This document shows, in pieces, positions 53,554 through 64,000 of a stretch of DNA of 64,000 bases. Within the stretch, counting starts at the first letter, position 1, and the number at the start of each line of letters is the position of its first letter. The notes beneath the pieces were generated by a model. It saw only the letters and a list, made by a program, of their open reading frames with translations, had not been told where the DNA came from and searched no databases. Position numbers and translations under genes: made by a program. The DNA is from an uncultured delta proteobacterium (GTDB lineage Bacteria; Desulfobacterota; RBG-13-43-22): NCBI GenBank assembly GCA_963843145.1, contig CAWJJC010000015.1:1-64000 (forward strand), in the 5' to 3' direction.

Positions 53554-55356
53554 ATGAGAGATAATGAAAAGACCAAAGCCCAACTGATCGAGGATTTGAA
53601 TGGTCTGCGCTTGAGAGTTACTGAACTGGAAAAGTTTGAAATCGAGCACAAGCAGACCGAAGGAGCTATTAAGAATTTAGCGAAGTTTCCCTCCGAAAAC
53701 CCTAATCCTGTACTACGTTTGAGTCAAGAGGGTATTATCCTGTTTGCTAACGAGGCCAGTAAGGCCCTGCTCCGAGATTGGCAGTGTGAGGTGGGCGGCT
53801 ATGCTCCTGCATTTTGGCACAATTTAGTTATTGAGGCCTTCAAAGATCAATCTCCGAAAACCGTTGATGTCCAATTTGGTGATAAGTTTTATATGTTTGA
53901 TATCGCCCCTGTCCCCCATACTAACTATGCCAACCTTTACGGTCGTGACAACACCGAACGCCAACGAGCGGAAGTTGAAAATAGGCGCAACGAGGCACGG
54001 CTGGAAAGCTTGCTGAAGATATCCCAGTATCGCGCCGACTCGACTCAAGAGCTTCTGGATTTCGCCCTTGAAGAAGCCATTGCCCTCACAAACAGCAAGA
54101 TCGGCTATGTTTACTTCTATGACGAGACCAAGAAAGAGTTTATTCTCAACACCTGGTCCAAAGAGGTCATGAATCAGTGCACCATTGCCGAGCCACAAAC
54201 TCTCTATCACCTCGATAAAACCGGGATCTGGGGAGAGGCCGTGCGGCAGGGTAGACCGATTATTCTCAATGATTTCCAGGCAACCCATCCATTAAAAAAG
54301 GGATACCCTGACGGCCATGCGCCCCTCTACAAGTATTTGACCGTTCCCGTCTTTTCCGATGACCGCATCGTGGGAGTTGTCGGCGTGGCCAATAAAGAAA
54401 CGGACTATAACCCCTCCGATGTGCGCCAGCTCACCCTGCTCATGGACTCGGTCTGGAAAATCTTCGAACGCAAGCGGACCGAGGAGGCACTGCGAGAAAG
54501 TGAGCAGCGCTACCGCAGTTTATTTGAATCGATGGACGAGGGATTCGCCCTTTGTGAGATGGTCTATGACGTAGTCGAGGGCAAGCCCATAGACTTCCGT
54601 TACCTGGTCGTCAACCCCGCCTTCGGCAAGCTGACCGGCCTACCGGTCGACCAAGTCGTAGGACGAACGGTGAAGGAAGTGATCCCGGGAATTGAGTCTT
54701 TCTGGATTGAGTCTTTCGACTGCGTGGTGCAGAGCGGTCGGGATGAAAGGTTTTCCAACCCCGTGGCGGAACTGGGAAAGGAATATGAAGCCTACGCCTG
54801 GCGCTCGGATGTCGGGCGGTTCGCGGTTGTCTTCAGCGACGTAACGGAGCGCAAAAGGGCCGAGGAAGCTCTCAAGGCATTGTCTCTTAAAGATGAACTG
54901 ACCGGCCTGTATAACCGCCGGGGTTTCTTTACTTTGGCCGAACAGGGCTTGAAGGCGGCCCAACGGATGGGAATAGAAATGCTGGCCATTTTCGGAGACT
55001 TGGATAATCTGAAATATATTAATGATACCTTCGGCCATAAAGAAGGCGACCAAGCCTTGGTAGAAACATCACAGATACTTAAAGAAACCTTTCGGGAATC
55101 GGATATCATCGCCCGCATAGGAGGGGATGAATTCGTCATTCTGGCCATGAACAGCTTTAAGACCTCGGCCGAGAAACTGATCAACCGGATCGAGCAGGCC
55201 TTGAATGACCATCCTCTCCAAAAAAAAGGCCCCTATAAAATCTCTCTAAGCTTAGGTATTGCCTGTTTTGATCCCCAAAACCCTTGCTCCTTAGATGTCC
55301 TCCTGGCCGAGGCCGATAAGATGATGTATCAGAATAAACAAAAGAAGAATAGATAG
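53554..55356 (+). CDS. PAS-GAF-PAS diguanylate cyclase
   Basis: D.LTGLYNRR, K.IND.FGH..GD, RESD I-site, GGDEF. Confidence 0.93.
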   Translation: MRDNEKTKAQLIEDLNGLRLRVTELEKFEIEHKQTEGAIKNLAKFPSENPNPVLRLSQEGIILFANEASKALLRDWQCEVGGYAPAFWHNLVIEAFKDQSPKTVDVQFGDKFYMFDIAPVPHTNYANLYGRDNTERQRAEVENRRNEARLESLLKISQYRADSTQELLDFALEEAIALTNSKIGYVYFYDETKKEFILNTWSKEVMNQCTIAEPQTLYHLDKTGIWGEAVRQGRPIILNDFQATHPLKKGYPDGHAPLYKYLTVPVFSDDRIVGVVGVANKETDYNPSDVRQLTLLMDSVWKIFERKRTEEALRESEQRYRSLFESMDEGFALCEMVYDVVEGKPIDFRYLVVNPAFGKLTGLPVDQVVGRTVKEVIPGIESFWIESFDCVVQSGRDERFSNPVAELGKEYEAYAWRSDVGRFAVVFSDVTERKRAEEALKALSLKDELTGLYNRRGFFTLAEQGLKAAQRMGIEMLAIFGDLDNLKYINDTFGHKEGDQALVETSQILKETFRESDIIARIGGDEFVILAMNSFKTSAEKLINRIEQALNDHPLQKKGPYKISLSLGIACFDPQNPCSLDVLLAEADKMMYQNKQKKNR

Positions 55357-55409
55357 GGTCAGGATTTATGCCCTGTTTTTTCATTTATCCCAATAATATA
55401 ACGTTGGTT

Positions 55410-56411
55410 CTAGATTGCATATTTCTGAAGGCAGAGGTCAGGCATTTCCGGAGAGTTTGCCAACCGGGTAACGGATGAGGTCGTTGTTCCTAAGTAGCGC
55501 GCTACTTCCGCCCCTGAATATCCCCATCTCTTGACCGCCAGTTGACAGAAAAGTCTTCGGGTCTTTACTACCTTGGCGGCACGGCTTCCGGACCGAACCA
55601 AATCCCAATCGGTTCCTTCCGACCGGGAAACCCGGGAGGCCAGTGTCCCCAGTTCAACCTTCCGAGCTTTGAGCCGGAGAGTTTCCTCTAACCGTTTCTC
55701 CGCCTGGGACATGACCTCCTCAATGAACTCGCCGCTCCCCAAAATCCGCTCATCCGAGGCCATCCGCAGTTCATGCCGCCGCAGAGACAGCACTTGCGAC
55801 CAACCTCCGGCGCTGCGGATCAAACCCCCGCCAACTAAGTCAGGCCGCCGACCCATCGGGATCCCGTCGGCCACAAATCCCTCATATTCCGCTCGCGCCT
55901 TCCGCAATTTCGGACTAAAAATGGAAAGGATCGATTCGGTCTCCTGCCAGTCCCGCCCTACTTTCCCCATCAAAACCGAATGCCCGCTCCAAGGGTATTC
56001 CTTTAATTTAGGCAAATCAGCCACCACTCCCCCCCGCAGAGGATTGAGATGAATGTAGCGCGTTAACTCCAAAAGGTAGGCCTCTTCTTCGCACACGATG
56101 GATTTATAGCGATTCTGGAAAAGGTGACCAAACCGTTTATGCCGTCGGTTGAAGTTTACTACATACCCGGTCATCAATTTTCTCATATTCGTGGAGAGAG
56201 GCTGAAGACCGGTACGTACCAATAAATGCATATGATTGGGCATCAGCGCCCAGGCATAGACCACCCACGCCCCGGCGCGAGCCCTTTCCTCCAGACGGAA
56301 CAGGAAATCCTCCCGGTCTTTATGATTTCGAAAGATTTTGGTTCTTTCTATCCCTCGGGCCATGACATGGTGCAGAACCCCCGGTGCGTCTAATCGAGCT
56401 TGTCTGGGCAT
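55410..56411 (-). CDS. REP-associated tyrosine transposase-like protein (Y1_Tnp plus C-terminal HTH)
   Basis: MPR..R, HH...RG, HUH motif NHMH, GHLFQ.RY, RYIHLNP, YPWS; C-terminal HTH. Confidence 0.92.
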   Translation of the reverse strand: MPRQARLDAPGVLHHVMARGIERTKIFRNHKDREDFLFRLEERARAGAWVVYAWALMPNHMHLLVRTGLQPLSTNMRKLMTGYVVNFNRRHKRFGHLFQNRYKSIVCEEEAYLLELTRYIHLNPLRGGVVADLPKLKEYPWSGHSVLMGKVGRDWQETESILSIFSPKLRKARAEYEGFVADGIPMGRRPDLVGGGLIRSAGGWSQVLSLRRHELRMASDERILGSGEFIEEVMSQAEKRLEETLRLKARKVELGTLASRVSRSEGTDWDLVRSGSRAAKVVKTRRLFCQLAVKRWGYSGAEVARYLGTTTSSVTRLANSPEMPDLCLQKYAI

Positions 56412-56417
56412 ATTCAG

Positions 56418-56446
56418 AATTTATTACACTTCCCCTACTCTGTCAA
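56418..56446 (-). promoter_or_regulatory. sigma70-like promoter of the Y1 transposase, probably leaderless transcript
   Basis: TTGACA-N17-TAAATT then 6 nt to the ATG; identical in copy 2. Confidence 0.6.
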
Positions 56447-56473
56447 TGCAATTTAGAACCAACGTCCCGTATT

Positions 56474-57226
56474 ATGAGTGGGGGCGCGTTGAGCAACAAC
56501 CGCGCCCTGCACGGTGGCGCGCTGTACAGCCTCGGGAACGCCGCGCTGGTCATGGCCACACTGGCGGATAACCTGGCCGGCAGAGGCGGCGCCATCGAAA
56601 ACAGTAACAATTCGGCCAACACGCTGACCATCAACGCCTCTACCCTCAGCGGCAACCAGGTTTCCTTCGCGATTTATCCCGCCGTCACCACCCCGCTGGG
56701 CAGCGCCATCTTCAATACGGCGCACCTGGACATCACCAACAGCACCCTCAGCGGCAACAGCGGCAGCACGGCGCTGCAAGAAGACAACAGCGTCATTACG
56801 CTTACCAACGTCACCGTGGCGCAAAACCCGAATGGCGGACTCGGCTCTGACCAGAGCCCCAATACGAGTCAGGTGCGGTTGTTCAATACCTTGCTGGCCG
56901 GCAACGGCACGTACAACTGCGGACCGATCCTGTTCGGGACGTTTACCAGCCAGAACAGCCTTTCGAGCAACAACAGTTGCCTAACTTGGGTCGGCAACCA
57001 AAACCAAAACGGCATCGATCCGCTGTTGAGCCCGCTGGGCTTTCACGGCGGCCCCACCCTGACGCACATGTTGGCCGCCGACAGCCGGGCGGTGGACGCC
57101 GGGGCCAACTGCCCCGCGCTGGACCAGCGCGGGGGCCTGCGGCCCGTGGGTGCCGCCTGCGACATCGGCTCGGTGGAGTATGGAGCGCTCTTGCCATTGC
57201 TTTATCTGCCATTAATCTCGAAATGA
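56474..57226 (+). pseudogene. 5'-truncated duplicate of the 46481-48185 gene
   Basis: Matches 47435-48185; begins immediately at the Y1 element end; ends LYLPLISK*. Confidence 0.88.
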
Positions 57227-57484
57227 TTGAGCCGGATCGGTTAGATCTCCCCGTCCCTTGGCAATGAACATCAGCCGAAGACGGCTCAGCGGCAACAAAT
57301 CAATTGGTAATTGCTTTATTGCCACCTCCAACGGAACGCCCCCTAATATAGGTTGTTTTTACTGCCCCTCAAGGTGAATATAAGGGAATTTTAACAAGAA
57401 AATACAGGATATCCCTTATTTTGATTCAGGGAAAAACTGTTATATTGTAATCCAGGGAATAAAAAATCAAAAAAGGAGAATGCT

Positions 57485-58096
57485 ATGAAGAAAACTATGT
57501 GCCTGATCGCGAGTATTTTTTTGGGAATTGGAATTTTAGGGATTGGCTCCTACCCGAGCTTGGCCGCAGCACCCTCCTTGGCTTCCAGTGGAGACGAGGT
57601 GCCACCTGCCAAACCCATTGGTGCATCGAAATCGCTGGCCGCCTTGCCGGCACCTACCCCCGGGGAAACCTTGGTCTATTTTTTTCCATCGGACAATGAT
57701 GCCACAGCTACTGTCATGTACATGTTAAATACCGATTCTGTTCCCCATACGGTCGCTTTGAGGGGGTATAGCCAAAACGGGGTTACGGTTTATTCCCTAA
57801 ATATCGATATCGGCGCTACCAGCATGTTACGTCTGATCAGCGATTTGGTAGCGGCTAGTCCTCCACCCAGTTGGGCAGCCGACTCTAATTTAGGCACTCT
57901 TGCTCCGATCATAACCAATTTTACCGATTTTACCTATTTTGCCAGTCTATCTCTGCCGAAAGGGGTATTGGTGGACGGATATGTTATCTTTAACCCCGGT
58001 ACAGGGACGGTGGATCCTCGGAAGGACCAGGGAGCAATCCCTTTGCGTTTTATGACCCAAACGGGTGGAGTGTTCCTTCCCTTGATTTCTCGCTGA
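57485..58096 (+). CDS. Secreted hypothetical protein with C-terminal FLPLISR motif
   Basis: AAGGAG RBS, signal peptide, Pro-rich linker; ends GGVFLPLISR*. Confidence 0.8.
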   Translation: MKKTMCLIASIFLGIGILGIGSYPSLAAAPSLASSGDEVPPAKPIGASKSLAALPAPTPGETLVYFFPSDNDATATVMYMLNTDSVPHTVALRGYSQNGVTVYSLNIDIGATSMLRLISDLVAASPPPSWAADSNLGTLAPIITNFTDFTYFASLSLPKGVLVDGYVIFNPGTGTVDPRKDQGAIPLRFMTQTGGVFLPLISR

Positions 58097-58160
58097 TCGT
58101 TGAATAACCTCAATTGCTGGTAACTTCTACGGAGGAAGACCATTAGGTTGGGAGGTTGGT

Positions 58161-58267
58161 TCAAATTAAGATCGCCCTTTTCGGGACCGCCCAAGAGGCC
58201 ATGAATAATATCGGAAAACATGCCAAGGCCGAAGCGATGCATCTCGTGCTGCGAATTGAGTCCGCCA
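58161..58267 (+). pseudogene. Deletion remnants of the 51916 histidine kinase
   Basis: 58161-58255 matches 52869-52963; 58256-58267 matches 53111-53122. Confidence 0.85.
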
Positions 58268-58268
58268 G

Positions 58269-60071
58269 ATGAGAGATAATGAAAAGACCAAAGCCCAACT
58301 GATCGAGGATTTGAATGGTCTGCGCTTGAGAGTTACTGAACTGGAAAAGTTTGAAATCGAGCACAAGCAGACCGAAGGAGCTATTAAGAATTTAGCGAAG
58401 TTTCCCTCCGAAAACCCTAATGCTGTACTACGTTTGAGTCAAGAGGGCATTGTCCTGTATGCTAACGAAGCCAGTAAGGCCCTGCTCCGAGATTGGCAGT
58501 GTGAGGTGGGCGGCTATGCTCCTGCATTTTGGCACAATTTAGTTATTGAGGCCTTCAAAGATCAATCTCCGAAAACCGTTGATGTCCAATTTGGTGATAA
58601 GTTTTATATGTTTGATATCGCCCCTGTCCCCCATACCAACTATGCCAACCTTTATGGTCGTGACAACACCGAACGCCAACGAGCGGAAGATGAAAATAGG
58701 CGAAACGAGGCACGGCTGGAAAGCTTCCTGAAGATATCCCAGTATCGCGCCGACTCGACTCAAGAGCTTCTGGATTTCGCCCTTGAAGAAGCCATTGCCC
58801 TCACAAACAGCAAGATCGGCTATGTTTACTTCTATGACGAGACCAAGAAAGAGTTTATTCTCAACACCTGGTCCAAAGAGGTCATGAACCAGTGCACCAT
58901 TGCCGAGCCACAAACTCTCTATCACCTCGATAAAACCGGGATCTGGGGAGAGGCCGTGCGGCAGGGTACACCGATCATTCTCAATGATTTCCAGGCAACA
59001 CATCCATTAAAAAAAGGATACCCTGACGGCCATGCGCCCCTCTACAAGTATTTGACCGTTCCCGTCTTTTCCGATGACCGCATCGTGGGAGTTGTCGGCG
59101 TGGCCAATAAAGAAACGGACTATAACCCCTCCGATGTGCGCCAGCTCACCTTGCTCATGGACTCGGTCTGGAAAATCTTCGAACGCAAGCGGACCGAGGA
59201 GGCACTGCGCGAAAGTGAGCAGCGCTACCGCAGTTTGTTTGAGTCGATGGACGAGGGATTCGCCCTTTGTGAGATGGTCTATGACGTAGTGAGGGCAAGC
59301 CCATAGACTTCCGTTACCTGGTCGTCAACCCCGCTTTCGGCAAGCTGACCGGCCTACCGGTCGATCAAGTCGTAGGACGAACGGTGAAGGAAGTGATCCC
59401 GGGAATTGAGTCTTTCTGGATTGAGTCTTTCGACTGCGTGGTGCAGAGCGGTCGGGATGAAAGGTTTTCCAACCCCGTCGCGGAACTGGAGAAAGGAATA
59501 TGAAGCCTACGCCTGGCGCTCGGATGTCGGGCGGTTCGCGGTTGTCTTCAGCGACGTAACGGAGCGCAAAAGGGCCGAGGAAGCTCTCAAGGCATTGTCT
59601 CTTAAAGATGAACTGACCGGCCTGTATAACCGCCGGGGTTTCTTTACTTTGGCCGAACAGGGCTTGAAGGCGGCCCAACGGATGGGAATAGAAATGCTGG
59701 CCATTTTCGGAGACTTGGATAATCTGAAAAATATTAATGATACCTTCGGCCATAAAGAAGGCGACCAAGCCTTGGTATATACCTCACAGATACTTAAAGA
59801 AACCTTTCGGGAATCGGATATCATCGCCCGCATAGGGGGGGATGAATTCATCATCCTGGCCATGAACAGTTTTAAGACCTCGGCCGAGAAACTGATCAAC
59901 CGCTTCGAGCAGGCCTTGAATGACCATCCTCTCCAAAAAAAAGGCCCCTATAAAATCTCTCTAAGCTTAGGTATTGCCTGTTTTGATCCCCAAAACCCTT
60001 GTTCCTTAGATGTCCTGCTGGCCGAGGCCGATAAGATGATGTATCAGAATAAACAAAAGAAGAGTAGATAG
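58269..60071 (+). pseudogene. Duplicate PAS-GAF-PAS-GGDEF gene with frameshifts at ~59290-59490
   Basis: Near-identical to 53554-55356 but split by small indels. Confidence 0.85.
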
Positions 60072-60182
60072 GGGCAGGATTTATGCCCTGTTTTTTCATT
60101 TATCCCAAAGAAAATACTTATTAAAACCTACATTGGCGCATCTCCGGCCTACTGACCGGCGATCGGATTGACAGGACTTCTG

Positions 60183-60455
60183 TCACTGGACGGTCTCGCA
60201 CCTGGGAAAGTCGGTGTAGCCGACTTCGTCAAACGAGTACCAGACCTTCATGTCCGCCGGCGGATTTAAAGGCCAGCCGTTGACCAGCCGCTCGGCTAGA
60301 TCCGGATTGCTGATGAAGGGCCGGCCGAAAGAGATCAAATCCGCCTGGCCGCTCTGAATTGCCGCCTCCGCGGTTTCCTTGGTGTACCCACAATTCCCCA
60401 TGAGCGGCCCCTCAAATACCTCCCGGAATTCACCCAGGGTCATGGGCGCCCCGTA
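60183..60455 (-). pseudogene. C-terminal remnant of an Old Yellow Enzyme (alkene reductase)
   Basis: N.GY....AE..I..G.ADL..FGR.FI.NPDL..R...G.PLN...Y....GYTD.P; 5' part cut off at the mobile element. Confidence 0.85.
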
Positions 60456-60634
60456 GATGTAGATGGGACGCGTAATATGGGACATCCTATAATCATCCTG
60501 TCAAGAGGAAATATTTCATTTTGAGAAAAATAACGATTTTGATGGGATAGGATTTGGGCTCATTTTTTGAACGCACCTCCCCTTATACGCCTGACGCAGA
60601 CGTGATTTATAATGATATCCCCAGTGCTCACCAA

Positions 60635-60795
60635 CCGCGAACTTTAAACCTCAGCGTTATCAGTATCCGGCATCCCGTCCTGGACAGGCGCCCATCATCC
60701 CTTATCCAGGTTTTAAAGTTTAGTGAGCGGCCCTGATTGTCCCCCTCGAGGTCCATAAAAGGCCTCTACGTTGGTGCCTCGGGCTCGCTAAAGGG
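60635..60795 (-). ncRNA. Predicted bridge/seek RNA of the IS110 element
   Basis: Two stem-internal loop-stem modules after the recombinase stop; loop 1 has ACCAACGU and GGGAC (target), loop 2 has GGAUG and AUAAC (donor junction). Confidence 0.78.
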
Positions 60796-60812
60796 AATTA
60801 AGAGTTTTCTGC

Positions 60813-62093
60813 TTACTCTGGATTCAGATATCGCGGATTATAGGGCTCCTTTTTCTTCATGATCGTCCAAGCGATGATCAAGAACTTGGCCGACAGCTTG
60901 ACCCACCGTTTGGTTTTGATCCCGGCTTCTTTGGCCCGCCCCTGCAATTGATCCGTGTAATGTTCGATCCAGGGTCGATGGCGGGTGGAGGCGATAAAGG
61001 CTGCCTGGTATAAGGCATAGCGCAGATCGGCTTTTCCTTTTTTGGAAATGACCGGGATCGCCGTATCCGAGGGTTTCCCGCTCCGCTCGGCGCCCAGATC
61101 CAAGCCGGCCATCTTGAGCACCTGCTTCCGGTTTTGAAAACGGAAGGGATTGCCCAGGGCGCCGATCACCTTGGCCGAAACGTCCGGGCCAAAGCCGGGG
61201 ATGGTCAGCAGATACCCATATTCCGGAAACTGCCGGCAGGTCTCCCGGATCTGTTCGTCGGTCTTCTTAATGGTCTCCCGGAGTTGCCGCAACCCGTCCA
61301 CCATCACCTCGGCCTCGAAGTGGGCCCCTTCCCCCATCTCGCAACCGATGGAGTCGATGGCCAGTTGCTGGATGGTCTTTAAGCGCTGGTGCTGGGCCAG
61401 GGTCTTTCGCCCGGGCACTACCCGCTGGACGAATTGACCGAACTCCAAACCGGCCAGTTCGGAAGTATCCAGGCACCAGCGGACAATCGCTTCCACCTCC
61501 GGCCGCCCGCTAAAACGATCCAATTCGGGGAAATACTGCGCTAAGAGGTGGTTCCGGATACGCACCCGATAGCTGTGTTCCTGCTTCTTCAGCTTCTTTT
61601 TCAGCGACAGCAGGGTGCGCAGATCCCGGAGCCCCATCTCCGGGTACTCGTAGTACAGGCATTTTCCCTGGGAGATCAGGTCGGCGATATTGGCCGCGTC
61701 TTTGCTATCGTGTTTGTCCCAGCGCCCGTCCAAAAGCTCCCGGTTGCGCTTGACCGCTACCCCGGAAACCAGGACCACCATCCGGCCGCATTTAATCAAA
61801 TGCTCTCCCAGCGGCTTGTGATAGTTGGCCGTGGGTTCCAGGCCAAAGACTGCCTTCGGCAGACCCTGGGCCACCTGGACGGCCCTGACCTGGGTCAGCA
61901 ACTTCTCAAATCCCTCGATGGTATTGTCAAAGATCAATCGTTTGAAAAGCGTCTTCCCGGTGGCCGTGCCCAAGAAGGCATGGTGTTTTTCCTTGGCCAC
62001 GTCGATCCCGACGATCAGATGGTCCTTCGATCCCCGGATCTCTTTCTTGAGTTGACGAAATTCCTTGAGCCTGGTATCCTCTACTTCGTTCAT
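60813..62093 (-). CDS. IS110 family recombinase/transposase
   Basis: RuvC DEDD (GIDVAK, GLEPT, KHDSKDA), TIPGFG, conserved SG, SKKG..DLR.ALY. Confidence 0.95.
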   Translation of the reverse strand: MNEVEDTRLKEFRQLKKEIRGSKDHLIVGIDVAKEKHHAFLGTATGKTLFKRLIFDNTIEGFEKLLTQVRAVQVAQGLPKAVFGLEPTANYHKPLGEHLIKCGRMVVLVSGVAVKRNRELLDGRWDKHDSKDAANIADLISQGKCLYYEYPEMGLRDLRTLLSLKKKLKKQEHSYRVRIRNHLLAQYFPELDRFSGRPEVEAIVRWCLDTSELAGLEFGQFVQRVVPGRKTLAQHQRLKTIQQLAIDSIGCEMGEGAHFEAEVMVDGLRQLRETIKKTDEQIRETCRQFPEYGYLLTIPGFGPDVSAKVIGALGNPFRFQNRKQVLKMAGLDLGAERSGKPSDTAIPVISKKGKADLRYALYQAAFIASTRHRPWIEHYTDQLQGRAKEAGIKTKRWVKLSAKFLIIAWTIMKKKEPYNPRYLNPE

Positions 62094-62232
62094 TGAACAC
62101 CTCCTGTTTGAGAGTTGAAGTTTGGTGGAACTTACTTTTTCTCTTAACAGGAGGTTTTTTATTTGGGAAGATTATATGAATTTTTTTTCTGGCGCAGGCT
62201 CTGGAGCCTATTCCAAATTCTGGGAATATATA

Positions 62233-63297
62233 ACGTTGGTTCTAGATTGCATATTTCTGAAGGCAGAGGTCAGGCATTTCCGGAGAGTTTGCCAACCGGG
62301 TAACGGATGAGGTCGTTGTTCCTAAGTAGCGCGCTACTTCCGCCCCTGAATATCCCCATCTCTTGACCGCCAGTTGACAGAAAAGTCTTCGGGTCTTTAC
62401 TACCTTGGCGGCACGGCTTCCGGACCGAACCAAATCCCAATCGGTTCCTTCCGACCGGGAAACCCGGGAGGCCAGTGTCCCCAGTTCAACCTTCCGAGCT
62501 TTGAGCCGGAGAGTTTCCTCTAACCGTTTCTCCGCCTGGGACATGACCTCCTCAATGAACTCGCCGCTCCCCAAAATCCGCTCATCCGAGGCCATCCGCA
62601 GTTCATGCCGCCGCAGAGACAGCACTTGCGACCAACCTCCGGCGCTGCGGATCAAACCCCCGCCAACTAAGTCAGGCCGCCGACCCATCGGGATCCCGTC
62701 GGCCACAAATCCCTCATATTCCGCTCGCGCCTTCCGCAATTTCGGACTAAAAATGGAAAGGATCGATTCGGTCTCCTGCCAGTCCCGCCCTACTTTCCCC
62801 ATCAAAACCGAATGCCCGCTCCAAGGGTATTCCTTTAATTTAGGCAAATCAGCCACCACTCCCCCCCGCAGAGGATTGAGATGAATGTAGCGCGTTAACT
62901 CCAAAAGGTAGGCCTCTTCTTCGCACACGATGGATTTATAGCGATTCTGGAAAAGGTGACCAAACCGTTTATGCCGTCGGTTGAAGTTTACTACATACCC
63001 GGTCATCAATTTTCTCATATTCGTGGAGAGAGGCTGAAGACCGGTACGTACCAATAAATGCATATGATTGGGCATCAGCGCCCAGGCATAGACCACCCAC
63101 GCCCCGGCGCGAGCCCTTTCCTCCAGACGGAACAGGAAATCCTCCCGGTCTTTATGATTTCGAAAGATTTTGGTTCTTTCTATCCCTCCGGCCATGACAT
63201 GGTGCAGAACCCCCGGTGCGTCTAATCGAGCTTGTCTGGGCATATTCAGAATTTATTACACTTCCCCTACTCTGTCAATGCAATCTAGAACCAACGT
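62233..63297 (-). mobile_element. Y1/HUH (RAYT-like) element copy 2; both inverted repeats interrupted by IS110
   Basis: acgttggttctagattgcat (62233-62252) / atgcaatctagaaccaacgt (63278-63297). Confidence 0.85.
62242..63243 (-). CDS. REP-associated tyrosine transposase-like protein, copy 2
   Basis: Same as 55410-56411 except R19G. Confidence 0.92.
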   Translation of the reverse strand: MPRQARLDAPGVLHHVMAGGIERTKIFRNHKDREDFLFRLEERARAGAWVVYAWALMPNHMHLLVRTGLQPLSTNMRKLMTGYVVNFNRRHKRFGHLFQNRYKSIVCEEEAYLLELTRYIHLNPLRGGVVADLPKLKEYPWSGHSVLMGKVGRDWQETESILSIFSPKLRKARAEYEGFVADGIPMGRRPDLVGGGLIRSAGGWSQVLSLRRHELRMASDERILGSGEFIEEVMSQAEKRLEETLRLKARKVELGTLASRVSRSEGTDWDLVRSGSRAAKVVKTRRLFCQLAVKRWGYSGAEVARYLGTTTSSVTRLANSPEMPDLCLQKYAI

Positions 63298-64000
63298 TAT
63301 ATATTCCCAGAATTTGGAATAGGCTCCCGAGCCTGCGCCAGAAAAAAAATTCATATAATCTTCCCAAATAAAAAACCTCCTGTTAAGAGAAAAAGTAAGC
63401 ATCACCAAACTTCAACTCTTAAACAGGAGGTGTTCAATGAACGAAGAAGAGGATATCAGGCTCAAGGAATTCCGTCAACTCAAGAAAGAGATCCGGGGAT
63501 CGAAGGACCATCTGATCGTCGGGATCGACGTGGCCAAGGAAAAACACCATGCCTTCTTTGGCACGGCTACCGGGAAGACGTTTTTCAAACGATTGATCTT
63601 TGACAATACGATCGAGGGCTTTGAGAAGTTGCTGACTCAGGTCAGGGCCGTCCAGGTGGCCCAGGATCTGCCGAAGGCAGTCTTTGGTTTGGAACCCACG
63701 GCCAACTATCACAAACCGTTGGGAGAGCATTTGATTAAATGCGGCCGGATGGTGGTCTTGGTTTCCGGAGTAGCGGTCAAGCGCAACCGGGAGCTACTGG
63801 ACGGGCGCTGGGACAAACACGATAGCAAAGACGCGGCCAATATCGCCGACCTGATCTCCCAGGGAAAATGCCTGTACTACGAGTACCCGGAGATAGGGCT
63901 CCGGGATCTGCGCACGCTGCTGTCGCTGAAGAAGAAGCTGAAGAAGCAGGAGCACAGCTATCGGGTGCGTATTCGGAACCACCTCTTAGCGCAGTATTTC
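63298..64000 (+). mobile_element. Second IS110 copy in inverted orientation, runs off the window (CDS starts at 63437)
   Basis: Reverse complement of 62232 leftwards with scattered substitutions; MNEEEDIRLKEFRQLKK...GIDVAK. Confidence 0.92.

What the first reader, a model, noticed from the sequence alone, without database searches (positions are those of the whole stretch)
60473..63297. IS110 bridge RNA appears programmed to attack the terminal inverted repeat of another transposon, with guides readable in the sequence
Seen: the empty Y1-element end at 56446-56474 reads (reverse complement) TAATACGGG-AC-GTTGGTTCTAAATTGCAT. In copy 2 the same motif is split: TAATATGGG-AC (60473-60483), then 1751 bp of IS110, then GTTGGTTCTAGATTGCAT (62235-62252), with AC at both junctions. 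The opposite repeat is cut at the same dinucleotide (GT, 63296-63297) by a second IS110. Downstream of the recombinase, the minus-strand RNA folds into stem (60783-60790 with 60721-60728), internal loop, inner stem. The loop strands carry ACCAACGU (60768-60775; identical to the target left flank plus core, accaacGT) and GGGAC (60739-60743; complementary to core plus right flank, GTccc). A second stem (60708-60720 with 60640-60651) has loop segments GGAUG and AUAAC that partly match the predicted circle junction ataggatGT|tata. Established: IS621/IS1111 bridge (seek) RNAs have target- and donor-binding loops with such left and right guides, and IS621 targets REP sequences. Inference: this is a natural bridge recombinase with a GT core that parasitises the ends of a mobile HUH element; I do not know of this pairing being described.
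Basis: partly seen in the sequence, partly recalled or inferred. Interest (0 to 1): 0.9.

Follow-up and report, generated by a model that had tools for sequence, protein, structure and literature searches.

The report
Bridge-RNA IS110 inserted in TIRtron repeats
An IS110-type jumping gene carries a guide RNA whose loops spell out the exact spot in the end-repeat of another small mobile element where all its copies sit, which is a clear natural example of a mechanism already known since 2024 rather than a new one.

Summary
A 1751-bp IS110-family element (60484-62234, minus strand; 426-aa DEDD recombinase) splits the terminal inverted repeat (TIR) of a Y1/HUH element at ACCAAC-GT-CCC. All 3 of 3 genomic copies sit at that word, in one orientation relative to the TIR. 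The 3' non-coding region encodes a two-loop RNA. Across 25 homologous sequences, 38 pairs are 95.4% paired, against 29-49% in slid controls, and 25 pairs show compensatory changes. Its first loop carries ACCAACGU (left flank plus core) and GGGAC (complement of core plus right flank), the IS621 arrangement. Across 18 distinct homologous insertions the left guide tracks its own flank: mean 7.06 against 4.63 contiguous bases, 0 of 100000 permutations. The second loop matches the predicted circle junction, which would form a TTGACA-17-TATATA promoter.

Corrections:
- The element is IS110-type, not IS1111-type, although its RNA lies 3' of the gene.
- The target is a described class, a TIRtron (TIRYT gene with TIRs).
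- IS110/IS1111 elements that target other mobile elements or REPs are already known.

Expression and activity are untested. Verdict: a real bridge RNA system and a new member of a known kind.

The parts
60484..62234 (-). IS110-family element, copy 1 (1751 bp counting one copy of the GT core; the body is 1749 bp)
   Evidence: Boundaries come from comparison with the uninterrupted repeat end at 56446-56474 and with two further genomic copies.
60813..62093 (-). Recombinase gene, 426 aa (DEDD RuvC-like domain plus C-terminal Tnp domain)
   Evidence: PF01548 scores 86.9 bits and PF02371 62.1 bits. NF033542 'IS110 family RNA-guided transposase' scores 164.5 bits against a cutoff of 140. Both domains align to the IS621 transposase 8wt6. 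All 3 genomic copies have intact frames.
60608..60803 (-). Bridge RNA region, between closing helix 60791-60793 and 60620-22. The true 5' and 3' ends of the RNA are unknown.
   Evidence: RNAalifold and pair counts on 25 homologues: 38 pairs in 6 helices, 95.4% paired, 25 pairs with compensatory change, 0 of 500 shuffles as high.
60730..60784 (-). Target-binding stem-loop: base stem 60781-60784 with 60730-60733, inner hairpin 60762-60766 with 60748-60753
60768..60775 (-). Left target guide ACCAACGU. It is identical to the top-strand left flank plus GT core, so it would pair with the bottom strand.
   Evidence: Contiguous identity with the cognate flank is at least 8 bases in 14 of 21 loci.
60739..60743 (-). 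Right target guide GGGAC, the complement of core plus right flank (GT-CCC)
   Evidence: At least 5 contiguous matches in 20 of 23 loci. The guide changes together with the flank in L018.
60626..60728 (-). Donor-binding stem-loop: helices 60725-60728 with 60626-60629, 60708-60720 with 60640-60651, and 60683-60692 with 60669-60679
   Evidence: Helices 5 and 6 have 10 and 8 pairs with compensatory change.
60696..60700 (-). Left donor guide core GGAUG. It matches the last four bases of the right end plus the first core base.
   Evidence: L018 and L027 change guide and right end together. L024 also matches the second core base.
60656..60660 (-). Right donor guide AUAAC, the complement of the GT core plus the first three bases of the left end
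   Evidence: L017 changes the guide (CAAC) and the left end (TGT...) together.
60499..60504 (-). TTGACA in the right end: the -35 half of the predicted circle-junction promoter
   Evidence: TTGAC[ACG] with a 17-nt spacer to the left-end hexamer in 19 of 21 loci, and 18 nt in 2 of 21.
62227..62232 (-). TATATA at the left end: the -10 half of the predicted junction promoter
60473..60483 (.). Outer part of the left TIR of TIRtron copy 2, cut off by IS110 copy 1
62235..63297 (-). TIRtron copy 2 between the two IS110 copies: inner TIR halves at 62235-62252 and 63278-63297, Y1 gene at 62242-63243
   Evidence: PF01797 at 1.6e-9. NF047646 scores 61.1 bits, below its cutoff of 80. 99.8% identical to copy 1.
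63298..64000 (+). IS110 copy 2, which runs on to contig position 65047 outside the window. It is inserted at the same GT of the right TIR, inverted relative to copy 1.
55403..56474 (-). TIRtron copy 1 (Y1 gene 55410-56411), with an uninterrupted right TIR and an empty target word at 56458-56468

Best explanation
This is a bridge-RNA-guided IS110-family insertion sequence whose natural target is the terminal inverted repeat of a TIRtron (a RAYT-like Y1/HUH gene flanked by about 30-bp TIRs).

Proposed cycle:
1. The element excises as a circle, in which the right end, one GT core and the left end abut and create a TTGACA-17 nt-TATATA promoter.
2. Transcription from that promoter runs through the recombinase gene into the 3' non-coding region, which folds into two stem-loops with internal loops.
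3. [quoted passage not shown] 4. The second loop pairs in the same way with the circle junction (GGAUG and AUAAC).
5. The DEDD/Ser recombinase exchanges strands at the GT core. This gives orientation-specific insertion without a target duplication, between the inner 18 and outer ~11 bases of the TIR.

Shown here: the anatomy, the conserved and covarying RNA fold, guide-target and guide-donor complementarity and their co-variation, site and orientation specificity of all copies, and the conserved junction promoter geometry.

Inferred from the IS621/ISEc21 paradigm: transcription and processing of the RNA, its binding to the recombinase, circle formation and catalysis. That TIRtron TIRs are the selected target rather than merely the commonest carriers of the 11-base word is also inferred.
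For: 1. Site specificity. All 3 of 3 full copies, plus the flank of one right-end fragment, lie at ACCAAC-GT-CCC, with the left end always towards the Y1 gene side of the TIR. The 18-base inner TIR occurs only 9 times in 5.3 Mb at up to 2 mismatches, always at Y1 ends or fragments. It is therefore not a high-copy REP.

2. Protein. Both Pfam IS110 domains are present. NCBIfam NF033542 scores above its cutoff. Both domains align to IS621.

3. RNA. The 25 homologues (47-100% protein identity range) give 6 helices and 38 pairs, 95.4% paired against 29.6-49.1% when partners are slid. 25 pairs show compensatory change, and 0 of 500 shuffles reach any of the five measures.

4. Guide polarity is that of IS621: the 5' side of the loop matches the top-strand left flank plus core, and the 3' side is the complement of core plus right flank (PMC11208160 passages).

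5. Co-variation of the left guide. Among 18 distinct left-flank/guide pairs, cognate pairs average 7.06 contiguous matches against 4.63 for non-cognate pairs, with 0 of 100000 permutations as high. 14 of 21 loci have at least 8 contiguous matches, up to 11. Re-targeted examples are ...ACTAC-GT in L001 and ...CCATA-GT in L015 and L029.

6. Co-variation of the right guide. Cognate pairs average 5.22 against 4.51, with 284 of 100000 permutations as high. In L018, GGCAC goes with GT-GCC.

7. Donor loop. L017 changes the right donor guide and the left end together. L018 and L027 change the left donor guide and the right end together.

8. Junction promoter geometry is conserved in 19 of 21 loci. The simple scan found no sigma-70-like promoter on the element's sense strand in the integrated copy.

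9. The three genomic copies differ at 130 of 1755 aligned columns, yet all four guide strings are identical.

10. Y1 genes or fragments lie next to the left end in 9 of 18 loci that have at least 1 kb of upstream flank (W1-3, L001, L003, L010, L019, L020, L024).
Against: - No expression or activity data exist. Contigs from two RNA libraries cover parts of the region, but DNA carry-over cannot be excluded, and no circle or excision joint was seen.
- The single-sequence fold is unremarkable (z = -1.21; 24 of 200 shuffles fold as well). Rfam has no match.
- In 7 of 21 loci the left guide matches its flank over fewer than 8 contiguous bases: L019 5, L003 4, L006 4, L014 3, L024 3, L027 2, L018 2. 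Several of these elements have broken genes or diverged guides.
- The left donor guide of the window's copies matches only the first core base (GGAUG-A against GGATG-T).
- Three perfect 11-base target words are unoccupied, including one outside any TIR (C27:4960). Because about 2.5 such words are expected by chance, presence at TIRs alone is weak evidence of specialisation.
- In 9 of 18 loci no Y1 homologue was detected beside the element.
- Two alternative pairings compete for columns 85-87 of the alignment, an extension of the first base stem and helix P3. One lineage split supports both, so the exact junction between the two stem-loops is unresolved.
Confidence: 0.88

Rival explanations
1. 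The bridge RNA is real, but the link with the Y1 element is incidental. The element needs only the ~11-base word. TIRtron TIRs simply hold most copies of that word in these genomes, serving as a multi-copy 'safe haven'. There is then no specialisation on, or consequence for, the TIRtron.
For: Only about 11 bases are specified by the two target guides. 2.5 such words are expected by chance in the genome, and one perfect word lies outside a TIR. No Y1 homologue was found next to the element in 9 of 18 loci. L015 and L029 are re-targeted to a different word, and in L029, whose flank was examined, that word is not beside a Y1 gene. Y1 genes are near-universal in the order (20 of 21 genomes), so co-occurrence says nothing.
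Against: 5 of the 6 exact words in the genome (3 occupied plus 3 empty) are TIRs, and the 3 occupied ones are all TIRs. In other genomes the flanks resemble the same TIR well beyond the guided 11 bases, for example the TGTCAA box about 20 bases further in, even where no Y1 gene was detected. Guide variants follow TIR variants within one MAG (L001, L003, L013).
Confidence: 0.15
2. The element is an IS1111-type IS with a seekRNA of IS1111 polarity, as suggested by the RNA lying 3' of the gene.
For: The longer non-coding region is downstream of the gene (329 against 141 bp), as in IS1111-type elements (PMC11187229 sections 4 and 6).
Against: There are no 11-13 bp subterminal inverted repeats; the best match is 7 of 11. 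The recombinase has 426 aa against 330-350 for IS1111 types. The guide order is bottom-strand match 5' of top-strand match, which is the IS110 order and not the IS1111 order.
Confidence: 0.03
3. The target is recognised by the protein alone, and the 8-base identity in the non-coding region is a captured or duplicated piece of target with no guiding role.
For: No functional data are available. The single-sequence fold energy is not unusual.
Against: The identical segment sits in the internal loop of a conserved, covarying structure. It changes together with the flank in independent relatives, while the surrounding stems stay constant. The opposite loop strand is complementary to the other flank, and a second loop matches the donor junction.
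Confidence: 0.03

Closest known systems
IS621 bridge recombinase and bridge RNA (IS110 group; Durrant et al. 2024, PMC11208160, passages read; structure 8wt6)
   Same: - DEDD plus Tnp-domain recombinase.
- An RNA with two internal loops.
- The 5' loop strand matches the top-strand left flank plus core (8-9 nt), and the 3' strand is the complement of core plus right flank (4-7 nt).
[quoted passage not shown]
- A circle intermediate with a junction promoter, and no target duplication.
   Different: - The RNA lies in the right end, 3' of the gene, not in the left end.
- The recombinase has 426 aa against 326-328, and is only distantly related (phmmer E 6.6e-15).
- The core is GT, not CT.
- The target is a TIRtron TIR, not a REP.
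- Nothing here has been tested experimentally.
ISEc21 (IS110 type; Siddiquee et al. 2024, PMC11187229, section 12 read)
   Same: An IS110-type element whose seekRNA has the bottom-strand match 5' of the top-strand match, and whose natural target lies inside another mobile element (a conserved stretch of IS3-family transposase genes).
   Different: In ISEc21 the RNA is upstream of the gene, and the target is coding sequence of a DDE transposase rather than a terminal repeat of an HUH element.
IS4321/IS5075 (IS1111 family; Partridge and Hall 2003, seen only as a reference title)
   Same: DEDD-transposase elements that insert site- and orientation-specifically into the terminal inverted repeats of another transposon (Tn21 family), with the non-coding region 3' of the gene.
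   Different: They are IS1111-type, with subterminal inverted repeats and transposases of roughly 330-350 aa. Their hosts are Tn3-family DDE transposons. This element lacks such repeats and has IS110 guide polarity.
REP-targeting IS110-family elements: IS621, ISPa11 and ISPpu9 (PMC11187229, PMC12288879, passages)
   Same: They target short repeats that belong to the RAYT/Y1 tyrosine-transposase world.
   Different: REPs are high-copy hairpin repeats dispersed in the genome. Here the target is a low-copy, non-palindromic TIR found only at the ends of the Y1 gene (9 sites).
TIRtron / TIRYT (Di Nocera et al. 2013, PMC3733652; subclass 2.1 of Quentin et al. 2018, PMC6006769; passages read). This is the class of the target element.
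   Same: A RAYT-like Y1 protein of about 330 aa with an HUH motif and a catalytic-type Tyr, flanked by TIRs instead of REP hairpins. The TIR begins with a G-rich motif close to the published GGGGWSAS.
   Different: The published motif is matched only in part. A C-terminal DnaA_C/HTH domain was not detected by Pfam in this protein, though one homologue carries PF08299. This family is multi-copy here, with 3 full copies at 89-99.8% identity.

Membership tests
IS110-family bridge recombinase / bridge RNA system | Recombinase with an N-terminal DEDD RuvC-like domain and a C-terminal Tnp domain bearing the conserved Ser-Gly | tested here: met
   PF01548 and PF02371 are present. NF033542 scores 164.5 against a cutoff of 140. 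The alignment to IS621 covers both domains, with GID, LEPT, KxDxxDA and ...SG conserved. The naming of the catalytic residues is recalled, not tested.
IS110-family bridge recombinase / bridge RNA system | Non-coding RNA with two stem-loops, each carrying an internal loop | tested here: met
   6 helices, 95.4% paired, 25 of 38 pairs with compensatory change.
IS110-family bridge recombinase / bridge RNA system | Target loop: the 5' strand equals top-strand left flank plus core, and the 3' strand is the complement of core plus right flank, co-varying with the target | tested here: met
   Left guide: 0 of 100000 permutations as high. Right guide: 284 of 100000. 7 of 21 loci match poorly on the left.
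IS110-family bridge recombinase / bridge RNA system | Donor loop complementary to the RE-core-LE junction | tested here: met
   AUAAC is the complement of GT+TAT. GGAUG equals GGAT plus G. Paired changes occur in L017, L018 and L027. The matches are short (5 nt), and the second core base is unmatched in the left donor guide of the window's copies.
IS110-family bridge recombinase / bridge RNA system | Site- and orientation-specific insertion without target duplication, with the same core dinucleotide at both junctions | tested here: met
   3 of 3 copies, compared with the uninterrupted TIR.
IS110-family bridge recombinase / bridge RNA system | Circular intermediate whose junction forms a promoter | tested here: inconclusive
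   The predicted junction gives TTGACA-17-TATATA, conserved in 19 of 21 loci. No circle junction was seen in the contigs laid.
IS110-family bridge recombinase / bridge RNA system | The RNA is expressed, binds the recombinase and is required for recombination | not testable with these tools
   Only contigs from RNA libraries were available, which cannot show transcription.
IS110 group (as opposed to IS1111 group) | Bridge RNA encoded in the left end, upstream of the gene | tested here: not met
   The RNA lies 3' of the gene, at 60608-60803. Siddiquee et al. note that some IS110-type groups have a downstream non-coding region (section 6).
IS110 group (as opposed to IS1111 group) | No long subterminal inverted repeats; bottom-strand match 5' of top-strand match; longer recombinase | tested here: met
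   Best inverted match of the ends is 7 of 11. Guide order. The protein has 426 aa.
IS1111 group | Subterminal inverted repeats of 11-13 bp, a transposase of 330-350 aa, and top-strand complement 5' of bottom-strand match | tested here: not met
   Only the downstream position of the non-coding region fits.
TIRtron / TIRYT (the target element) | RAYT-like Y1 (HUH plus Tyr) protein | tested here: met
   PF01797 at 1.6e-9. NF047646 scores 61.1 bits, below its cutoff of 80. HMH and a Tyr in the ...RYIHLNP... context are visible in the translation. Homologues are labelled RayT or putative transposase.
TIRtron / TIRYT (the target element) | Gene flanked by terminal inverted repeats rather than REP hairpins; the repeats are not a high-copy family | tested here: met
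   TIRs of about 29-31 bp on the uninterrupted copies. 9 sites in the genome, all at Y1 ends.
TIRtron / TIRYT (the target element) | C-terminal HTH / Bac_DnaA_C-like domain (subclass 2.1) and the GGGGWSAS motif in the TIR | tested here: inconclusive
   There is no Pfam hit beyond Y1_Tnp at E<=0.001. One homologue carries PF08299. The TIR motif matches the published consensus only in part (by eye).

The most novel reading that the evidence does not exclude
A distinct clade of IS110-type bridge recombinases has specialised on the terminal repeats of TIRtrons and diversifies its left target guide in step with TIR variants. The clade has ~426-aa proteins and encodes its bridge RNA in the right end, but with IS621-like guide polarity. 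It would then be an RNA-guided hyperparasite of HUH/Y1 elements. By splitting the TIR it would disable or capture the host element, as in the IS110-TIRtron-IS110 arrangement at 60484-65047. Natural re-programming is visible in relatives, including one switch to a word lying next to an IS91-family (Y2 HUH) transposase gene.
Probability: 0.4. Interest if true: 0.6.

Novelty: new member of a known kind. Interest (0 to 1): 0.45.

Why it matters
This is a clean, fully readable natural bridge RNA system. All four guides, the core, the donor junction and the junction promoter can be assigned from sequence alone and checked by co-variation.

- It adds a clade in which the RNA sits 3' of the gene yet keeps IS110/IS621 polarity. 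That bears on how the RNA moved between element ends during IS110/IS1111 evolution.
- It provides a set of naturally re-programmed guide-target pairs, with left guides of 8-11 nt. These could inform guide-length rules for engineering.
- It gives TIRtrons, poorly understood Y1 elements, a dated marker of their ends and a possible antagonist.

It does not reveal a new mechanism.

Tried and rejected
Rfam 15 search of 55000-64000 at E<=1: no match. Bridge RNAs of this clade are therefore not covered by a curated family.

Single-sequence folding of 60590-60812: z = -1.21, not informative.

REP hypothesis for the target: rejected. There are only 9 sites, all at Y1 ends, and no hairpin.

IS1111 membership: rejected (and the guide order).

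Sequencing runs. No run holds more than 0.28 of the sampled words. I laid 2 RNA-library and 2 DNA runs, all held as Logan contigs. Short contigs 88-99% alike cover most bins, including the non-coding region. Contigs cannot show transcription, strand or ends. No joint corresponding to precise excision or to the RE-LE circle was listed. I draw no conclusion from this.

Co-occurrence in the order. The IS110 clade is in 10 of 21 genomes and Y1 homologues in 20 of 21. This is not discriminating, and the genomes are related.

tblastn against plasmids: the best identity is 31%, with no named close relative.

Pfam on 10 ORFs flanking homologous insertions that lacked a Y1 hit: 7 without any family, 1 RHS, 1 sigma-54 activator, 1 IS91-type Y2 transposase.

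A looser regular-expression table of left-end junctions over all 39 loci gave false positives and was not used for any count.

Rows dropped before the counts:
- L011 was left out of alignment A1 because its left-guide segment is deleted.
- L021, L025, L031 and L032 were left out because their non-coding regions are truncated.
- L002, L007, L017 and L030 have no usable left flank, and L019 and L030 no right flank.
- For L015 and L029 the left-end junction was chosen among 2-3 candidates by best match to the family's left-end hexamer-plus-two consensus, not by match to the guide. With the earlier distance rule they scored 2 contiguous matches, and the permutation counts were 20 and 4 of 100000.

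I did not build a covariance model or run structure prediction. Neither would have changed the verdict.

Supplementary Fig. 2 of PMC11187229 and Supplementary Table 5 of PMC11208160 may already list this clade or its target, and I could not check them.

Searches behind 'not in print': (terms RAYT/IS110/REP; TIRYT; bridge RNA/IS110/IS200/terminal inverted repeat). They found no paper describing IS110 insertion into TIRYT or TIRtron repeats. This covers only the held library.

Full report
**What is in the sequence**

The sequence at 56446-56474 is an uninterrupted repeat end. At 60473-60483 its outer 11 bases are followed by 1751 bp of foreign DNA (60484-62234). The inner 18 bases then follow at 62235-252. 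On the + strand, AC closes both junctions.

A second copy of the foreign element starts at 63298, directly after GT at 63296-63297. It is inverted relative to the first. A 1.06-kb unit is therefore bracketed by two copies.

The foreign element encodes a 426-aa protein (60813-62093, minus strand). It carries both IS110 Pfam domains and scores above the curated cutoff of NCBIfam 'IS110 family RNA-guided transposase'. It aligns over both domains to the IS621 transposase of PDB entry 8wt6.

The bracketed unit encodes a 333-aa Y1_Tnp protein. That protein scores below the cutoff of the REP-associated tyrosine transposase model (61.1 against 80 bits).

**Copies and sites in the genome**

The window is contig C15:1-64000 of a 5.35-Mb, 32-contig assembly. 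blastn finds three full IS110 copies: two in C15 and one in C12, 94% identical to each other. It also finds one 113-bp right-end fragment in C27.

All 3 of 3 full copies have the same left flank (ending ACCAAC-GT) and right flank (GT-CCC...). The fragment is followed by GT-CCC as well. In each case the element's left end faces the Y1-gene side of the repeat. This explains why the two copies around one unit are inverted.

The inner 18-base repeat occurs only 9 times in the genome at up to 2 mismatches. Every occurrence lies at the end of a Y1 gene or Y1 fragment:
- 3 are occupied by the IS110 element.
- 3 are intact and empty.
- 1 is followed by 7 bases identical to core plus left-end start, then by unrelated DNA.
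- 2 are degenerate.

The exact 11-base word ACCAACGTCCC is found unoccupied 3 times: twice in repeats and once elsewhere (C27:4960). About 2.5 occurrences are expected by chance.

**The RNA**

The 329-bp stretch 3' of the gene is far better conserved in its first ~200 bases than in its last ~110. Rfam has no match, and the single-sequence fold is unremarkable (z = -1.21).

Comparative data were therefore needed. The search for related loci returned 36 loci from public MAG contigs, with 47-96% identity to the recombinase. nhmmer located the non-coding region in 29 of them and in the window. I aligned 25 full-length instances as A1. L011 was left out because its left-guide segment is deleted. 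L021, L025, L031 and L032 were left out because they are truncated.

RNAalifold predicts a closing helix and two stem-loops, each with a large internal loop and an inner hairpin. After removing five isolated pairs inside the loops, 38 pairs in 6 helices remain:
- 95.4% of cells are paired, against 29.6-49.1% when partners are slid by 1-3 columns.
- 25 pairs show compensatory changes.
- 0 of 500 shuffles reach the observed value on any of the five measures.

In window coordinates:
- The first loop's base stem is 60781-60784 with 60730-60733, and its inner hairpin is 60762-60766 with 60748-60753.
- The second stem-loop uses 60725-60728 with 60626-60629, 60708-60720 with 60640-60651, and 60683-60692 with 60669-60679.

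An alternative 8-pair form of the first base stem is 97.5% paired. It competes with helix 60725-60728/60626-60629 for three columns. One lineage split supports both, so that detail stays open.

**Guides**

According to Durrant et al. (passages), two rules hold for IS621. [quoted passage not shown] In this element the 5' strand of the first loop reads ACCAACGU, identical to left flank plus core. The 3' strand reads GGGAC, the complement of GT-CCC. This is the IS621 and ISEc21 polarity. Siddiquee et al. report the reverse order for IS1111-type elements (sections 4, 9 and 12).

I then compared the guide segment (fixed alignment columns) with the actual flank in every locus where a junction could be located.

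Left guide:
- 21 loci have a usable left flank, giving 18 distinct pairs.
- Cognate pairs share 7.06 contiguous bases from the core outward, against 4.63 for non-cognate pairs.
- 0 of 100000 permutations reach the observed sum.
- 14 of 21 loci have at least 8 contiguous matches, up to 11.
- Informative changes include ...ACTAC-GT in both guide and flank (L001), ...CCATA-GT in both (L015, L029), and differing bases at positions -7 to -11 that match their own flank (L004, L005, L008, L010, L012, L026).

The remaining 7 of 21 loci match poorly: L019 5, L003 4, L006 4, L014 3, L024 3, L027 2, L018 2. Some of these elements have interrupted genes or aberrant non-coding regions. I did not establish why each one mismatches.

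Right guide:
- The right flank varies less.
- Cognate pairs score 5.22 against 4.51 for non-cognate pairs, with 284 of 100000 permutations as high.
- 20 of 23 loci have at least 5 contiguous matches.
- In L018, guide GGCAC goes with flank GT-GCC.

Donor loop:
- AUAAC is the complement of GT plus the first three left-end bases.
- GGAUG equals the last four right-end bases plus the first core base.
- L017 has CAAC together with a left end that starts TGT.
- L018 and L027 have GAGUG together with a right end ...GAGT.
- L024 also matches the second core base.
- In the window's copies the second core base of the left donor guide is unmatched.

The three copies in this genome differ at 130 of 1755 columns, yet all four guide strings are identical.

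**Ends and junction**

The two ends share no 11-13-bp subterminal inverted repeat; the best match is 7 of 11. Joining the right end, one GT and the left end would place TTGACA 17 nt upstream of TATATA. This geometry (TTGAC[ACG], 17 nt, left-end hexamer) holds in 19 of 21 loci, and the spacer is 18 nt in the other 2.

The simple promoter scan finds nothing on the sense strand of the integrated element. That fits the junction-promoter logic described for IS110 and IS1111 elements (passages). It is weak negative evidence.

**What the target element is**

The 333-aa Y1 protein has at least 8000 homologues of about 330 aa. Sources label them 'REP element-mobilizing transposase RayT' or 'putative transposase'. 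Many sit on contigs of 1.06-1.2 kb, as expected for a repeated ~1.1-kb element.

The uninterrupted copies carry ~29-31-bp terminal inverted repeats that are not palindromic. This fits the 'TIRtron' class of Di Nocera et al. 2013: TIR-associated tyrosine transposase (TIRYT) genes flanked by TIRs instead of REPs. Quentin et al. 2018 place most of these in their subclass 2.1 (passages). The published TIR motif GGGGWSAS is matched only in part, and the C-terminal HTH domain was not detected by Pfam in this protein.

The genome holds 3 full copies (89-99.8% identical) plus fragments. In the order, 20 of 21 genomes have homologues, and 10 of 21 have the IS110 clade.

An iterative profile search of six-frame ORFs examined the IS110 relatives in other genomes. 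It found a Y1 gene or fragment directly beside the left end in 9 of 18 loci with at least 1 kb of flank: W1-3, L001, L003, L010, L019, L020, L024. It found none in the other 9: L004, L005, L008, L013, L014, L018, L026, L027, L029. In several of these 9 the flank still resembles the same TIR well beyond the guided bases.

**How it most likely works**

The most likely mechanism is the IS621/ISEc21 one:
1. Excision to a circle.
2. Junction-promoter transcription through the gene into the 3' RNA.
3. Loading of the two-loop RNA on the recombinase.
4. Pairing of loop 1 with both strands of ACCAAC-GT-CCC in a TIR, and of loop 2 with the circle junction.
5. Strand exchange at GT.

Sequence evidence shows the anatomy, the fold, the complementarities and their co-variation, the site and orientation specificity, and the promoter geometry. 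Every biochemical step is inferred.

I could not test whether the element 'attacks' TIRtrons. Splitting a TIR plausibly immobilises the unit. The rival reading is that TIRs are simply the commonest, harmless carriers of the word.

**Expression**

The best-holding public runs contain only 0.15-0.28 of the sampled words. When laid, contigs from two metatranscriptome libraries and two DNA runs cover most of the stretch at 88-99% likeness. They cannot show transcription, and no circle or excision joint was listed. I count this as no evidence either way.

**Comparison and novelty**

The system works like IS621. It meets all sequence-testable features of a bridge RNA system. It fails one feature of the IS110 group (RNA position) and three of the IS1111 group (subterminal repeats, protein length, guide order). 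Siddiquee et al. mention IS110-type groups with a downstream non-coding region (section 6). Durrant et al. say the 'vast majority', not all, of IS110-group RNAs lie in the left end. The arrangement is therefore anticipated, although I saw no characterised example.

Targeting of other mobile elements or their repeats is established for IS4321/IS5075 (reference title only), ISEc21, and the REP-targeting elements. Three literature searches found nothing on IS110 insertion in TIRYT or TIRtron repeats.

I rate this a new member of a known kind.

Noticed in passing
window 55385-55410: The left end of TIRtron copy 1 lacks the outer part of its TIR. After the inner repeat and GT come 5 bases identical to the start of the IS110 left end, then unrelated DNA. 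This could be the stump of an IS110 copy removed by a deletion.
   Followed up: partly
G000:C5:81875-81915 (outside the window): A TIR inner half ending ACCAAC-GT is followed by 10 unrelated bases, then GT-CCCG. It looks like a small insertion or footprint exactly at the core. Unexplained.
   Followed up: no
window 60183-60485: A 100-aa ORF matches only the last 60 positions of the Oxidored_FMN (old yellow enzyme) profile. It ends at the TIR/IS110 junction, so a host gene appears truncated by the insertion or by a later rearrangement.
   Followed up: no
window 55343-55392 and 60063-60108: About 50 bases downstream of ORF 53554-55356 recur downstream of ORF 59406-60071, which encodes a GGDEF motif and lies after a second ORF, 58269-59306. 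This suggests a segmental duplication with one broken copy. Seen by eye only.
   Followed up: no
L029:2340-5776 and L015: Two related elements carry a re-programmed left guide (...CCATA-GT) that matches their own flank over 11 and 9 bases. In L029 an IS91-family Y2 transposase gene (PF04986 plus PF14319) ends 425 bp beyond the right end. This may be a switch to another HUH element's neighbourhood.
   Followed up: partly
right flanks of W1 (window 60440-60483), L005, L012, L015: In 4 of 22 occupied sites, the core plus first three right-flank bases recur 9-24 bases further out as short tandem units (three units in L005, a 19-base unit in L012). About 0.6 of 22 would be expected by chance. The three empty TIR ends in this genome show no such repeat. 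Unexplained.
   Followed up: partly
L001:3930-3965 and L011:1262-1300: Natural defective variants. L001 has a ~20-base insertion that replaces the right donor guide. L011 lacks the left target guide segment altogether.
   Followed up: no
L013:2361-5057: Two copies of the IS110 relative lie about 940 bp apart, each preceded by the same 12-base left flank, with a short Y1 C-terminal match between them.
   Followed up: no
window 63243-63297: Just inside the right TIR, the complement of the conserved TGTCAA box reads TTGACA, 17 nt upstream of TAAATT and about 20 nt before the Y1 start codon. It is likely the Y1 gene's own promoter, which IS110 insertion leaves intact. Seen by eye.
   Followed up: no
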